Origin: a virus
Lineage: Duplodnaviria; Heunggongvirae; Uroviricota; Caudoviricetes
Direction: 5' to 3' (one strand)
Virus record (IMG/VR): IMGVR_UViG_2675903324_000008
Span: 1-9,456 of that record
Length of the DNA: 9,456 nt
Made by a program: the position numbers
Shown here: positions 3,001 through 6,000 of the stretch, piece by piece
Position numbering within the stretch: position 1 is the stretch's first letter
How the letters are laid out: each line of letters begins with the position of its first letter

Positions 3001-6000
3001 TACCTCCTGACGAATACGGGCGGCAAATACAGCAACACAACCGGACGGGCAACGGTTACGCGCTTCGCGTTCCGTCCAGGCGGTTACGTGGATGATTTGA
3101 CGGTCTGACGCGCCGACGGCAATAAAGCGCCACACAAAGGCCGTTTGTGTGTGTGCTAGTCGTGGAGTATGATTTACGGCAACCATAACGGCTCCTCGTT
3201 TACGTTGTTGGTTAGAAGCCCCGTTACTGCTCCAACAGTGCGGGGCTTCGTCGTTTCAATTGCTGAATTGCATGTATCAGCTCTTGTGGTATTCAGATTA
3301 CATTTAAGTGAATACCATTTCAAGCTTTTTTGGGTATTCACTTTTGTGTTACACTGCATCCCGCTATTAATCGGAGGTGCAAACATGTCCACGAGTTCTG
3401 TTAACAATAAGTCACAGCAACTGAATGCCAGATTTCCACATGAAGTAGTGAGTGGCATTGAGGCATCCCTACAGCCAGGGGAAACTAAAGCGAATTTTAT
3501 AGTTACAGCAGTACGCGGTGAGATCGCCCGCCGCCAAGCAGAAGGAAGAGGAGAAAACCCCCTGGTTTCTTCGCTCGATGCACTGGCGCAGGTGGAAAAA
3601 ATCGGAGTCAAAGCAGCCGAGGAGATCGGGCAACTCGTCACCATCGCGCGTGAAGAACTCCAGCGTCGCAAGACCCAAGAATCAGAATAATAACTATCAG
3701 CGCCGTGGCGTGAGGAACTCCGGCGCATTGCTTTACAGGGCAGTATCATGACCAACAACACACTATCACCAATACAAGACACGCAAACGCAAGATGATGA
3801 AATCATCCGGCAAAGGCAGTCAGAAGCCTGCGCCAGAGTTGAGGAAGAACTAACCAGAACAAAAATACCACCACCAGCGCCGCGCTTAGTGCCACCAGAA
3901 AAATTTGCCCTTGAAGATTTTGTCGATAAATACCCACGGCGGTTAAAAGCCACTAAAAACCGACCGCCTGGCTGATAGCCTTGTCCACCAGCCGTAAATG
4001 TGGCATTGTCGGCGATGCTCATGCGTTGGGGATAACGCGAAATTTGTGTCGAAGGGCCACCGTGACAGGTGGCCTTTTCTTTGCCTGTTATCCGGCAATT
4101 GTGGCGCTTCTTCACACAGTTGATATAATTCCCCTGCACTGATCCAATTTTTTCGCAGCAGGTTAATTGTTCGCAAGGGCGCTCCGGCAACGGGGCGCTT
4201 TTTGTTTTTACCCACCAGCACAATAAAAATCTTCATTTTCCATTTTTGTAAAATTTCATGCTTTCCGGACGACGGGCCATATGTCATTTTTTAGCAGAAG
4301 ATTTTGCCTTGCTGGTGGGTAGCTTCTCGGTTAACACGATGTACCGTATAATCAGCACCGCGTGTGGTTACTGAATACGCTCACCAAAGTAAAACTCAGG
4401 CTGATATTCACGTATCAGCCTTTTTTCTTCTTCCTCCAGTTCACGTTTTTTGCGCTTACATGCCTGTAGCGCCCTCCCCTTCTCGCTGGCACTTATCTGA
4501 TATTGCTCTTTACGGCGGGAAAAATCCTGTAATGCACCCCACGGGATACCATAAGCCCCCGTTTTTCTGATACCCGGTATCACATTTCTGAATACCCAGT
4601 TACTGAAACGATGGGCGAATGTGCCTTGCGTCGTTGCTTTGCGGCTACGGGCTATTAGTTTGTAGAAACCTGACTCAGAGATAATGCTCATATTCTGATT
4701 TCCTCCTGGGGTGTAAGTTAAATTTACTCCCTTTTCATCATCATCAAGCATCTGCAACGCCGTACGCGAATTGGTCAGTTCCAGCGCAGCGCAGACATCC
4801 TTTGCAACAAACCACGGATCGCCGTTCAGATACACCACGCGAACGTTCACACTATCAAAGCGCAGAACGACCAGATCACGAAAATCACAGAATTTTTTTA
4901 CATGACGTGCGTCACCCTTGCCCGTCACGGCAATATTTTTATTCATTTCTTTTTTACCTCACATACAAAAAACCCCGCATTGCACGCGGGGTATGAAAGA
5001 TATTATTAGTGGGGATTGGCTTGTTCTCGTTGTTTATCTAACCATGCTTCTACATCTCTACGGTGCCAGGTATGTCGTCGTCCAATTCTGAACGGCTGAG
5101 GAAAACCATTATTCTCATCTTTCCAGAAATTGATGAATGCACTCATTGCTCCATATCGCAAGATTTTCATTACGTCTTTAGTAAATAAAATATCTTCATT
5201 GGTATTCATTTGCTGAACCTCCTCAACCATTTACTACTCTTAAACCTTTCATACCACCGGATCTATTAATTACCCCTTTTCTCGCATCATCAAAAAAATC
5301 ACCGACCCATTGCATCATGATCTTACGCTGTTCTAGATAAGTAGTTCTATTATAAACATCTCTTATTTTATCACCACTTTTATGCGCCAATGCAGCCTCG
5401 ATTACATCGGGGTTAAATCCCTCCTCATTTAAAAGCGTACTCCACATTGAACGAAAACCATGTAACGTTACAATCCCTTTGAACTTGCTGGCAGCAATTG
5501 GGGTCTTGATAGTATTCCTCCCCATAGGCGCATCTTTTGTTCTGGAGGAAAAAAACACATAACGCCCTCTTTTTATTTCCTGCATTGTTCTGAGGATACT
5601 AATAGCCTGTGATGACAAGGGAACAACATGTTCACGATGGCATTTCATTTTATGCGCGGGGATAATCCACAAGCCAGAATCAAAATCAATCTCTGACCAC
5701 TCTGCTTTAATTGCCTCACCTGGCCTGACCATTGTCAATATCTGGAATAAAAGTGCATTATGAGCTATTTGATAGGTATGAGGCACACTATCCCACCAGC
5801 TCAGAAATTCAGGCAATCTTTCAACAGGTAGTGCTGCTAATGATTTATTTTTCTTTCCTGTGAATGCAGTCTTTATCTTAAGTAATGGATTTGTTTTCAA
5901 TGTTCCACAATTTACAGCATAATTCATAATTTCATTTAATCTTGATATTAATTTTTTTTGCAACGCATTCTTATCGGATACGGCATCCAGAGCATTAATA

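What the first reader, a model, noticed from the sequence alone, without database searches (positions are those of the whole stretch)
3187..3690. Compact divergent switch: back-to-back promoters overlapped by three TGGTATTCA operator half-sites
A 9-bp perfect inverted repeat (3287-3295 / 3309-3317) lies across the -10 and spacer of the leftward promoter, and a third half-site (3333-3341) lies in the spacer of the rightward promoter driving the RHH-like gene. This is the layout of a repressor/anti-repressor immunity switch controlling the replication operon, and could mark the island's helper-sensing control point. A 9-bp stem hairpin (3215-3249) in the leftward leader may add RNA-level control.
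Basis: seen in the sequence. Interest (0 to 1): 0.5.

Follow-up and report, generated by a model that had tools for sequence, protein, structure and literature searches.

The report
Repressor-operator switch in a phage satellite
The repeats are real and mark a conserved, undescribed on/off switch of a phage-parasitic island in E. coli: a small DNA-binding protein most likely shuts off both its own promoter and the promoter of the island's replication genes. The whole switch lies inside a longer reading frame on the opposite strand.

Summary
TGGTATTCA/TGAATACCA (3287-3295/3309-3317) is a perfect inverted repeat. The third site is 3332-3343; it matches 8 of 9 bases and forms an 11-bp perfect repeat with the middle site. 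A degenerate fourth site lies at 3354-3362.

In 19 related loci from about 10 genera, four half-sites sit at fixed positions (-98, -76, -53, -31 from the ATG). They bracket a conserved leftward TTGAC -35 and a rightward extended -10. The half-site sequence changes together with the N-terminal domain of the adjacent YlcI/YnfO-family protein. It does not track the Icd-like protein or AlpA. The protein is therefore most likely an autoregulated repressor; support for a ribbon-helix-helix (RHH) fold is weak.

The first leftward gene is a homologue of phage P4 Kil, not a Cro-like partner. The "intergenic" switch lies inside a minus-strand frame kept open across the region, as in P4 eta/kil. The hairpin at 3215-3249 is conserved with covariation, but as a plus-strand structure. 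It probably ends a short antisense RNA over the Kil-like start.

The island is a known helper-embedded PICI (phage-inducible chromosomal island). I found no published description of the switch. Every mechanistic step is inferred.

The parts
2992..3186 (-). Icd-like / P4 Kil-like gene (64 aa), the first gene of the leftward operon that runs into DUF4222 and the AAA_25 replication protein (536-1945).
   Evidence: NCBIfam NF033153, E 4.8e-18. phrog_1743, E 1.3e-21. BLASTP to the P4 Kil region: 32% identity, E 0.001.
3145..3173 (+). Candidate promoter of a short rightward antisense RNA: TTGTGT-17-TATGAT. It lies inside codons 5-14 of the Icd-like gene.
   Evidence: A TAnnnT hexamer sits at a fixed 36-38 nt upstream of the hairpin in 15 of 15 loci. 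It persists despite different encoded amino acids and a different downstream gene in L031. This is an inference; the -35 is weak.
3192..3197 (-). Shine-Dalgarno sequence GAGGAG of the Icd-like gene. The candidate antisense RNA would cover it.
   Evidence: Read directly from the sequence.
3215..3249 (+). Conserved GC-rich stem-loop followed by a T-rich tail (3250-3262). It is best read as a plus-strand RNA 3' stem-loop or weak terminator.
   Evidence: Consensus fold: -22.9 kcal/mol on the plus strand, with 14 pairs of which 8 show compensatory changes. The minus strand gives -9.1 kcal/mol. The plus strand is more stable in 17 of 18 loci. In the window the z-score is -5.3.
3287..3295 (+). Operator half-site 1 (TGGTATTCA). 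It overlaps the -10 and the +1 of the leftward promoter.
3295..3323 (-). Leftward promoter P_L: -35 TTGAAA (3318-3323), a 17-nt spacer, -10 TAATCT (3295-3300). The predicted start is near 3288.
   Evidence: The TTGAC -35 is conserved in 16 of 19 loci at the same position. At 8 of 12 it falls below the scan threshold.
3306..3317 (-). Operator half-site 2 (TGGTATTCACTT on the minus strand). It lies in the P_L spacer.
3332..3343 (+). Operator half-site 3 (GGGTATTCACTT). It lies just upstream of the rightward -10.
3347..3355 (+). Rightward promoter P_R: an extended -10, TGT-TACACT. The predicted start is near 3362.
   Evidence: Relatives carry TGTGTATAAT or TGTGTATACT at the same position.
3354..3362 (-). 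Degenerate half-site 4 (GGGATGCAG on the minus strand, 7 of 9).
   Evidence: It is at -31 from the ATG, the position of half-site 4 in relatives.
3385..3690 (+). YlcI/YnfO-family protein (101 aa). It has an N-terminal RHH-like domain (about residues 9-53) and a long C-terminal helix (59-100). It is the predicted repressor.
   Evidence: NF041551, E 1.3e-16. AF2 model. The plus-frame amino-acid identity exceeds the minus-frame identity in 153 of 153 pairs. It has a Shine-Dalgarno sequence, GGAGG, at 3373-3377.
3174..4232 (-). Open minus-strand frame (352 codons). It covers the antisense of the repressor gene, both promoters, all the operators and the hairpin. It ends 8 nt after the Icd-like ATG.
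   Evidence: In 11 of 19 relatives the same frame runs in-frame into the Icd-like ORF.

Best explanation
The region is the control module of a Gram-negative phage-inducible chromosomal island (PICI).

Proposed mechanism (all inferred):
- The 101-aa YlcI/YnfO-family protein has an N-terminal ribbon-helix-helix-like DNA-binding domain and a long C-terminal helix that probably drives oligomerisation.
- It is made from an extended -10 promoter, P_R.
- It binds four 9-10-bp half-sites spaced two helical turns apart.
- Sites 1 and 2 bracket the -10 and spacer of the leftward promoter P_L. P_L drives the Kil/Icd-like gene and the replication operon, so binding there would repress it.
- Sites 3 and 4 bracket the -10 of P_R, so binding there would give negative autoregulation. 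Site 4 is degenerate in this window.

Shown here:
- The N-terminal domain and the operators form one exchangeable specificity module.
- The whole module lies inside a minus-strand reading frame that is kept open, as in P4 eta/kil.

Further inference:
- Leftward transcripts coming from the alpA/Bro side would be translated through the switch, antisense to the repressor gene. That would override or silence the repressor on induction.
- A conserved plus-strand stem-loop, with a -10-like element 36-38 nt upstream of it, suggests a cis-antisense RNA of about 80 nt over the Kil-like ribosome-binding site and start codon.
For: Architecture: 19 loci align without gaps. Sites fall at -98, -76, -53 and -31. 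GTCAAG (TTGAC on the minus strand) and TGTGTATA(A/C)T occupy fixed positions.

Co-variation across genera:
- The motif SQLTTVRVPHDV goes with TGTGTTTCA in E. coli, Citrobacter, Xenorhabdus and Photorhabdus.
- S(K/R)QISIRIPHD goes with TGTGATT(T/C)A in E. coli and Klebsiella.
- SQIKNVRVPHDV goes with GGTGTGCAT in Pantoea and Raoultella.
- SQQLNARFPHEV goes with GGTATTC in the window and in Yersinia.

Mosaic pattern:
- E. coli pairs with different operators: N-terminal domain 40-68% identical, C-terminal domain 84-95%, Icd-like protein 77-83%.
- Cross-genus pairs of the same class: three of the four keep the N-terminal domain at 82-88% (the fourth 70%) and three keep the operators at 82-86% (the window-Yersinia pair 62%), while the C-terminal domain is 51-71% and the Icd-like protein 22-34%.

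Other points:
- AlpA does not track the operator class.
- Class-specific words occur essentially only in the switch.
- The plus-strand gene is real: amino-acid identity is higher in the plus frame than in the minus frame in 153 of 153 pairs, and 56% of the differences fall at codon position 3.
- Open minus-strand frame: 0 stops in the 175 nt upstream in 12 of 15 loci, against a mean of about 3 in shuffles, with per-locus P of 0.009-0.14. There are 0 stops in 15 of 15 coding parts. The frame is in-frame with the Icd-like ORF in 11 of 19 loci.
- The P4 eta/kil layout was verified on the P4 sequence.
- Hairpin strand.
Against: - There is no binding, transcript or expression data. All promoters are consensus-level, and the scan tool calls none.
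- No significant sequence or fold match to any RHH family: Pfam hits are below the cut-offs, hhalign against Mnt gives 2.5% probability, and Foldseek finds nothing.
- Co-variation of the N-terminal domain with operators 60-130 bp away could partly reflect physical linkage in recombination blocks.
- The minus-strand peptide encoded opposite the N-terminal domain co-varies equally by construction.
- In the window the long minus-strand frame is out of frame with the Icd-like gene and has no convincing start. RefSeq calls it a pseudogene.
- A strong terminator follows alpA (4965-4990), so read-through from alpA is not automatic.
- The T-tract after the hairpin is short (T3) and offset in the window.
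Confidence: 0.65

Rival explanations
1. The repeats are binding sites for another island or host protein, such as AlpA, integrase, or IHF/Fis-type factors. The YlcI/YnfO-family protein would then have an unrelated role.
For: AlpA is the experimentally established activator of Gram-negative PICIs (PMC6092414), and AlpA alleles vary among E. coli islands. One exact TGGTATTCA overlaps the alpA start codon at 5200-5208.
Against: AlpA identity does not follow operator class. Same-class pairs are 37-44% identical and different-class pairs 25-62%. The Icd-like protein is near-identical across four operator classes. The copy at alpA is not reproduced in 12 other loci. Host factors could not explain class-specific half-site sequences.
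Confidence: 0.1
2. The protein binds the sites but acts mainly as an activator or a partition/centromere-type protein, not as a repressor of P_L. ParG-, omega- and TraM-like RHH proteins bind repeat arrays in this way.
For: The weak hits include CB_ParB_C and TraM-type RHH proteins. The four sites are regularly phased at 22-23 bp.
Against: The sites overlap the spacer, the -10 and the +1 of both promoters, which is repressor geometry. There is no partner ATPase gene. The position matches the P4 immunity promoter P_LE, and in L031 the P4-type isrK and C4 RNAs follow P_L.
Confidence: 0.1
3. The inverted repeats act as RNA or DNA secondary structure, for example in the long leftward transcript, or they are constraints of the minus-strand protein. 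No sequence-specific protein binding would be involved.
For: The region lies inside a conserved open minus-strand frame. Sites 1 and 2 could pair as a 9-bp stem.
Against: In four loci (L003, L004, L010, L032) sites 1 and 2 are direct repeats, giving the order forward, forward, reverse, reverse. They cannot pair, yet their positions are kept. The same word recurs four times at helical phasing. The minus-strand peptide is low-complexity and less conserved than the plus-strand protein.
Confidence: 0.07
4. The open minus-strand frame is a by-product of composition and of the plus-strand gene's codon and amino-acid usage, not a translated frame. The region would then be an ordinary intergenic switch.
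For: Within the coding part, synonymous resampling gives P(0 stops) of 0.2-0.5 per locus. The window's frame lacks a good start and is out of frame with the Icd-like gene. L003 and L004 have stops.
Against: The 175-nt AT-rich stretch, which is non-coding on the plus strand, has 0 stops in 12 of 15 loci spanning at least 7 different operator sequences. About 3 are expected, and the other two minus-strand frames have 1-7. In 11 of 19 loci the frame joins the Icd-like ORF in-frame, and in L026 it starts with a Bro-N domain. P4 has the same nested layout.
Confidence: 0.2

Closest known systems
Phage P22 immI region: Mnt and Arc repressors with divergent P_ant / P_mnt promoters (from my own knowledge of the P22 literature)
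   Same: A small repressor with an N-terminal ribbon-helix-helix domain and a C-terminal helical oligomerisation domain. It is transcribed divergently from the operon it represses, and its operators overlap back-to-back promoters.
   Different: There is no detectable homology (hhalign 2.5% probability). Here there are four phased half-sites and a single regulator gene rather than Mnt plus Arc. The controlled operon is kil/replication, not ant. The whole module is embedded in an antisense ORF.
Satellite phage P4 immunity region (P_LE, eta/kil nested genes, CI RNA/seqA)
   Same: The position in the element matches: int, then alpA/vis, then a Bro/eta zone, then the primase. The first gene is a Kil homologue. 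A long ORF contains an internal early promoter and ends with Kil. In L031, P4-type isrK and C4 RNAs follow P_L.
   Different: P4 immunity is RNA-based (CI), and P4 has no protein repressor gene on the opposite strand. The window has no C4 or isrK match. The candidate RNA here is cis-antisense on the other strand.
SaPI / Gram-positive PICI master repressor Stl (Rpr) with divergent regulatory genes
   Same: A repressor gene is transcribed divergently from the replication side and sits between the integration and replication modules.
   Different: The protein families are unrelated. Stl is relieved by helper proteins, and no such link is known here. [quoted passage not shown]
Helper-embedded PICIs (PMC10111431)
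   Same: The window's island sits in the terminase gpA gene of a lambdoid prophage and has the Integration, Bro, Replication zone order.
   Different: That paper does not describe this switch. It attributes immunity functions in the Bro zone to CI/seqA-like RNAs in some islands.

Membership tests
Ribbon-helix-helix (MetJ/Arc/CopG) DNA-binding superfamily | A strand-helix-helix unit of about 45 residues, with a G-x-S/T/N turn before helix B | tested here: inconclusive
   In the AF2 monomer, residues 12-18 are extended or coil, followed by helices 19-28 and 35-53. G-E-T/S at 32-34 is near-invariant in 46 relatives. The ribbon forms only in a dimer, which could not be modelled.
Ribbon-helix-helix (MetJ/Arc/CopG) DNA-binding superfamily | A significant profile or fold match to a curated RHH family or solved RHH structure | tested here: not met
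Ribbon-helix-helix (MetJ/Arc/CopG) DNA-binding superfamily | Binds repeated DNA sites as higher-order oligomers of dimers | not testable with these tools
   Inferred from four phased half-sites and a confident C-terminal helix 59-100.
YlcI/YnfO family (NCBIfam NF041551) | Match to the N-terminal 42-residue model above the curated cut-off | tested here: met
   60.3 bits against a cut-off of 30, E 1.3e-16, residues 9-50.
P4-type immunity region | A Kil homologue as the first product of the early leftward operon | tested here: met
   BLASTP to the P4 Kil region, E 0.001. Both belong to phrog_1743 / NF033153.
P4-type immunity region | Kil nested in-frame at the end of a long eta-like ORF that contains the early promoter | tested here: inconclusive
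   Met in 11 of 19 relatives and in P4. In the window the long frame is open across the switch but ends out of frame, 8 nt after the Icd-like ATG.
P4-type immunity region | CI (C4) immunity RNA and a seqA/isrK target | tested here: not met
   No Rfam match in the window at E <= 1. C4 and isrK were found only in P4 and L031 among 16 sources.
Gram-negative PICI / helper-embedded PICI | The order int, alpA, Bro zone, primase/replication, all leftward, with integration inside a prophage late gene | tested here: met
   Pfam and PHROG calls. The terminase gpA gene is split by the island in RM10466. The class is described in PMC10111431.
Rho-independent terminator (for the hairpin, plus strand) | A GC-rich stem followed immediately by a U-tract | tested here: inconclusive
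   The stem is strong and covarying. The tail is GTCGTTTC in the window and T3-T5 after a 3-4-nt offset in relatives. The scan tool does not call it.
P22 Mnt-type repressor | Sequence homology to Mnt | tested here: not met
   hhalign probability 2.5%, with only 13 columns aligned.

The most novel reading that the evidence does not exclude
Many Gram-negative PICIs, reported to lack a known master repressor, do carry one. It would be an RHH-type repressor whose gene, promoters and operators are all embedded antisense inside a translated eta-like ORF. Helper-triggered leftward transcription and translation through the module would flip the switch by running over the repressor gene. A cis-antisense RNA would separately hold down the toxic Kil-like gene. 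N-terminal-domain-plus-operator cassettes would be exchanged between islands as immunity specificities.
Probability: 0.3. Interest if true: 0.75.

Novelty: new variant of a known kind. Interest (0 to 1): 0.58.

Why it matters
Gram-negative PICIs are thought to be controlled by the activator AlpA. Whether they have a repressor has been left open (PMC6092414), and a 2026 survey still lists YlcI/YnfO and Icd-like genes as unexplained accessory genes (PMC13612085).

This module is present in 654 of 5,426 complete E. coli genomes and in at least ten enterobacterial genera. If it is a repressor-operator switch:
- It gives these satellites an immunity-like layer with exchangeable specificities.
- It explains a recurrent annotation conflict, in which overlapping 'Icd-like pseudogenes' are called across the YlcI/YnfO gene.
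- It offers natural orthogonal repressor/operator pairs.
- Its embedding in an open antisense frame makes it a compact case of overlapping coding and regulation that can be tested directly.

Tried and rejected
- Rfam search of the window at E <= 1. The only hit was a chance RsaJ match. No C4 or isrK was found, so the hairpin is not a known RNA family.
- PDB sequence searches with the full-length and the N-terminal profiles. These gave only a weak HhH-like match to Hef and phi29 p16.7.
- tblastn of both proteins against phage genomes. The Icd-like protein hits one induced satellite-like record and the repressor hits nothing.
- A guess at the EcCICFT073 coordinates in CFT073 landed on a lambdoid prophage. 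Whether the reference PICI carries this switch therefore remains unchecked.
- The extra TGGTATTCA at the alpA start as a conserved regulatory link. Rejected because 12 other loci have no such copy. However, three extra GGTATTCA copies in the window remain a mild unexplained excess.
- A 5' stem-loop presenting the anti-Shine-Dalgarno sequence in the candidate antisense RNA. Consensus support is weak (-4.5 kcal/mol) and the placement differs between subgroups.
- Icd-like protein or AlpA as the specificity determinant. Rejected by the identity patterns.
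Full report
**1. The observation**

- TGGTATTCA (3287-3295) and its complement (3309-3317) form a perfect 9-bp inverted repeat.
- The third copy is GGGTATTCACTT at 3332-3343. As a 9-mer it has one mismatch.
- The 8-mer GGTATTCA occurs six times in the window against 0.26 expected, and no shuffle in 200 reached six.
- The 9-bp hairpin 3215-3223 / 3241-3249 is real.
- The promoter scan finds nothing at its threshold of 9 of 12. The promoters are TTGAAA-17-TAATCT leftward (3323-3295) and an extended -10, TGT-TACACT, rightward (3347-3355). 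Coordinates were checked.

**2. The genes and the element**

- Rightward, 3385-3690 encodes a 101-aa YlcI/YnfO-family protein (NF041551, E 1.3e-16).
- Leftward, 2992-3186 encodes a 64-aa 'Icd-like' protein (NF033153). Small ORFs and an AAA_25 replication protein follow it.
- To the right lie a Bro-N gene, an AlpA-like gene and an integrase. The integrase abuts the N-terminal fragment of a lambdoid terminase gpA gene.
- The query region 2900-3800 is identical in E. coli RM10466, where the other half of the terminase gene lies at the far end of the island.
- This is a helper-embedded PICI, a class described in PMC10111431.

**3. The comparative test of the repeats**

I collected 19 loci that encode relatives of the rightward protein. 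They come from E. coli, Salmonella, Citrobacter, Klebsiella, Enterobacter, Raoultella, Yersinia, Erwinia, Pantoea, Xenorhabdus, Photorhabdus and metagenomes.

The 105 bp upstream of the ATG align without a single gap. The order of elements is:
- half-site 1;
- the leftward -10;
- half-site 2;
- GTCAAG, which reads TTGAC on the minus strand and is the leftward -35;
- a T-run;
- half-site 3;
- TGTGTATA(A/C)T, the rightward extended -10;
- half-site 4;
- the Shine-Dalgarno sequence and the ATG.

An unsupervised word search puts the sites at about -98, -76, -53 and -31 in most loci. The window fits this pattern. Its fourth site (3354-3362) is degenerate, whereas in most relatives the third site is the weak one.

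In four loci the orientation is forward, forward, reverse, reverse rather than alternating. Sites 1 and 2 are then direct repeats, which argues against a hairpin role.

**4. Which protein reads the sites**

The half-site sequence differs between lineages and follows residues 10-21 of the rightward protein. The same motif goes with the same word across distant genera.

| N-terminal motif | Half-site word | Hosts |
|---|---|---|
| SQLTTVRVPHDV | TGTGTTTCA | E. coli, Citrobacter, Xenorhabdus, Photorhabdus |
| S(K/R)QISIRIPHD | TGTGATT(T/C)A | E. coli, Klebsiella |
| SQIKNVRVPHDV | GGTGTGCAT | Pantoea, Raoultella |
| SQQLNARFPHEV | GGTATTC | the window (E. coli), Yersinia |

The pattern is mosaic.

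| Comparison | N-terminal domain | Operators | C-terminal domain | Icd-like protein |
|---|---|---|---|---|
| E. coli islands with different operators | 40-68% | 61-74% | 84-95% | 77-83% |
| Same-class pairs across genera | 70-88% | 62-86% | 51-71% | 22-34% |

In the cross-genus row, three of the four pairs have N-terminal identity of 82-88% and three have operator identity of 82-86%. The exceptions are the E. coli-Klebsiella pair (N-terminal 70%) and the window-Yersinia pair (operators 62%).

- AlpA does not follow operator class.
- Class words are essentially confined to the switch.
- The N-terminal domain plus the operators therefore form one specificity cassette. This is what is expected if that domain binds the sites.
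- Physical linkage could contribute to the correlation, so this remains inference, not proof.

**5. Is the protein an RHH?**

- The AF2 monomer has an extended segment at 12-18, helices at 19-28 and 35-53, and a confident long helix at 59-100.
- A search of 1.8 billion representatives shows that the N-terminal domain also exists as stand-alone proteins of 55-65 aa. They share a near-invariant R-x-P-H-(E/D) strand and a G-E-S/T turn.
- Weak Pfam hits of family members cluster in RHH families.
- Nothing reaches significance, and hhalign against Mnt gives 2.5% probability.
- I treat 'RHH-like' as likely but not established.

**6. The leftward partner**

- The Icd-like protein aligns with the Kil part of the old P4 'cI' ORF (E 0.001), and both fall in phrog_1743.
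- The PHROG label 'transcriptional repressor' probably comes from that obsolete P4 annotation.
- It is therefore a Kil-type cell-division inhibitor homologue, not a Cro-like regulator.

**7. The switch is inside an open frame**

- One minus-strand frame shares its third codon positions with the rightward gene.
- In that frame there are no stops from 200 nt upstream to 300 nt downstream of the ATG in 13 of 19 loci. The other two minus-strand frames have 4-14 stops.
- In the 175 nt that are non-coding on the plus strand, 12 of 15 loci have no stop. Dinucleotide shuffles give a mean of about 3, with per-locus P of 0.009-0.14, across at least seven unrelated operator sequences.
- In 11 of 19 loci the frame continues in-frame to the Icd-like stop codon. 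This gives open frames of 305-695 codons; the ORF called in L026 is 495 aa and begins with a Bro-N domain.
- In the window, and in five other loci, the frame ends within about 20 nt of the Icd-like ATG, which is a translational-coupling geometry.
- This is the P4 eta/kil layout. In P4 a long ORF starts at the vis stop codon, contains P_LE and ends with Kil in-frame (verified; described in PMC10111431).
- The plus-strand gene is nevertheless real. Its amino-acid identity exceeds that of the minus-strand frame in all 153 pairs, and 56% of differences fall at codon position 3.
- RefSeq annotates the minus-strand frame as partial 'Icd-like' pseudogenes overlapping the YlcI/YnfO gene.

**8. The hairpin**

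- It is conserved in all loci, but the strand matters.
- As plus-strand RNA the consensus fold is -22.9 kcal/mol, with 14 pairs of which 8 show compensatory changes. One pair is G-U in 11 of 16 sequences.
- As minus-strand RNA those positions are A-C mismatches, and the consensus fold is -9.1 kcal/mol.
- Folded individually, the plus strand is more stable in 17 of 18 loci.
- A T-rich tail follows on the plus strand.
- A TAnnnT hexamer, often with an upstream TG, lies 36-38 nt upstream in all 15 loci examined. It lies inside the first codons of the leftward gene, it survives changes in the encoded residues, and it is kept in L031 where that gene is an ASH-family protein instead.
- The simplest reading is a cis-antisense RNA of about 80 nt (window about 3181-3262, plus strand) covering the Kil-like Shine-Dalgarno sequence and start codon. 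In the window this RNA folds with a z-score of -5.3.
- This is a hypothesis. The -35 is poor and the terminator is marginal.

**9. Relation to P4 immunity**

- P4 gives C4 (CI) and isrK matches in Rfam.
- Among the 15 sources scanned that carry the switch (the window and 14 loci), only L031 does. There, isrK and two C4 copies follow P_L.
- P_L thus occupies the place of P4's P_LE.
- In most islands a protein repressor cassette stands where P4 uses an RNA.

**10. The model**

- *Shown:* conserved four-site architecture over conserved promoter elements; a specificity cassette; an open antisense frame; a plus-strand structure.
- *Inferred:* the protein represses P_L through sites 1 and 2 and autoregulates P_R through sites 3 and 4.
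- *Speculative:* induction works by leftward transcription and translation through the module, which would interfere with P_R and with the repressor mRNA. An intrinsic terminator directly after alpA (4965-4990) means this read-through would need its own promoter or antitermination.

**11. Literature**

- I found no description of the switch.
- PMC6092414 states that a global repressor in Gram-negative PICIs is unclear and that AlpA is the inducer-responsive activator.
- PMC13612085 lists YlcI/YnfO only as a 'prophage-associated protein'.
- The long form of the gene occurs in 654 of 5,426 complete E. coli genomes.

**12. Verdict**

This is a real, conserved regulatory module. It is a new variant of known repressor-operator and P4-type immunity designs, sitting in a known class of element. 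All mechanistic steps still need experimental confirmation.

Noticed in passing
window 5223-7630; L001: The island is integrated inside the terminase large-subunit (gpA) gene of a lambdoid prophage. The N-terminal fragment (6623-7630) abuts int, and in RM10466 the C-terminal fragment lies at the other end of the island. This is the published helper-embedded PICI configuration.
   Followed up: partly
window 4965-4990 (- strand): A strong intrinsic terminator (CCCCGCGTGCAATGCGGGG followed by T6) lies directly after alpA and before the Bro-N gene. Leftward read-through from int/alpA is therefore not free.
   Followed up: no
window 937-944, 4589-4596, 5201-5208: Three further exact GGTATTCA copies lie outside the switch: one in the replication gene, one in Bro-N, and one over codons 1-4 of alpA. 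The whole window is expected to hold 0.26. Fifteen other loci show no such excess for their own operator words.
   Followed up: partly
L031 1511-2397: A Salmonella island carries the same switch and, downstream of P_L, P4-type isrK and two C4 (CI) RNA matches inside an ASH-family gene. Protein-based and RNA-based control can therefore occur in series.
   Followed up: partly
L010, L011, L023, L025 (between int and alpA): The Rfam int-alpA RNA motif (RF02996) is present in four related islands but is not found in the window at the gathering threshold.
   Followed up: no
window 3560-3650 (protein residues 59-90): The C-terminal part of the repressor candidate gives a helix-hairpin-helix-like match to archaeal Hef (1x2i, E 0.007), through the motif L-x-x-V-E-x-I-G-x-K-A-x-E-E-I. 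AF2 models the same stretch as one long helix.
   Followed up: no
window 3748-3975 (+): A 75-aa ORF lies just downstream of the repressor gene and has no family match. A 59-aa plus-strand ORF is called at the same place in L013 and L015. It overlaps the open minus-strand frame, and whether it codes is unclear.
   Followed up: no
L001 9725-10324; L034 3489-4555: RefSeq annotates partial or frameshifted 'Icd-like' pseudogenes on the strand opposite the YlcI/YnfO gene. This is an annotation conflict caused by the conserved open antisense frame.
   Followed up: partly
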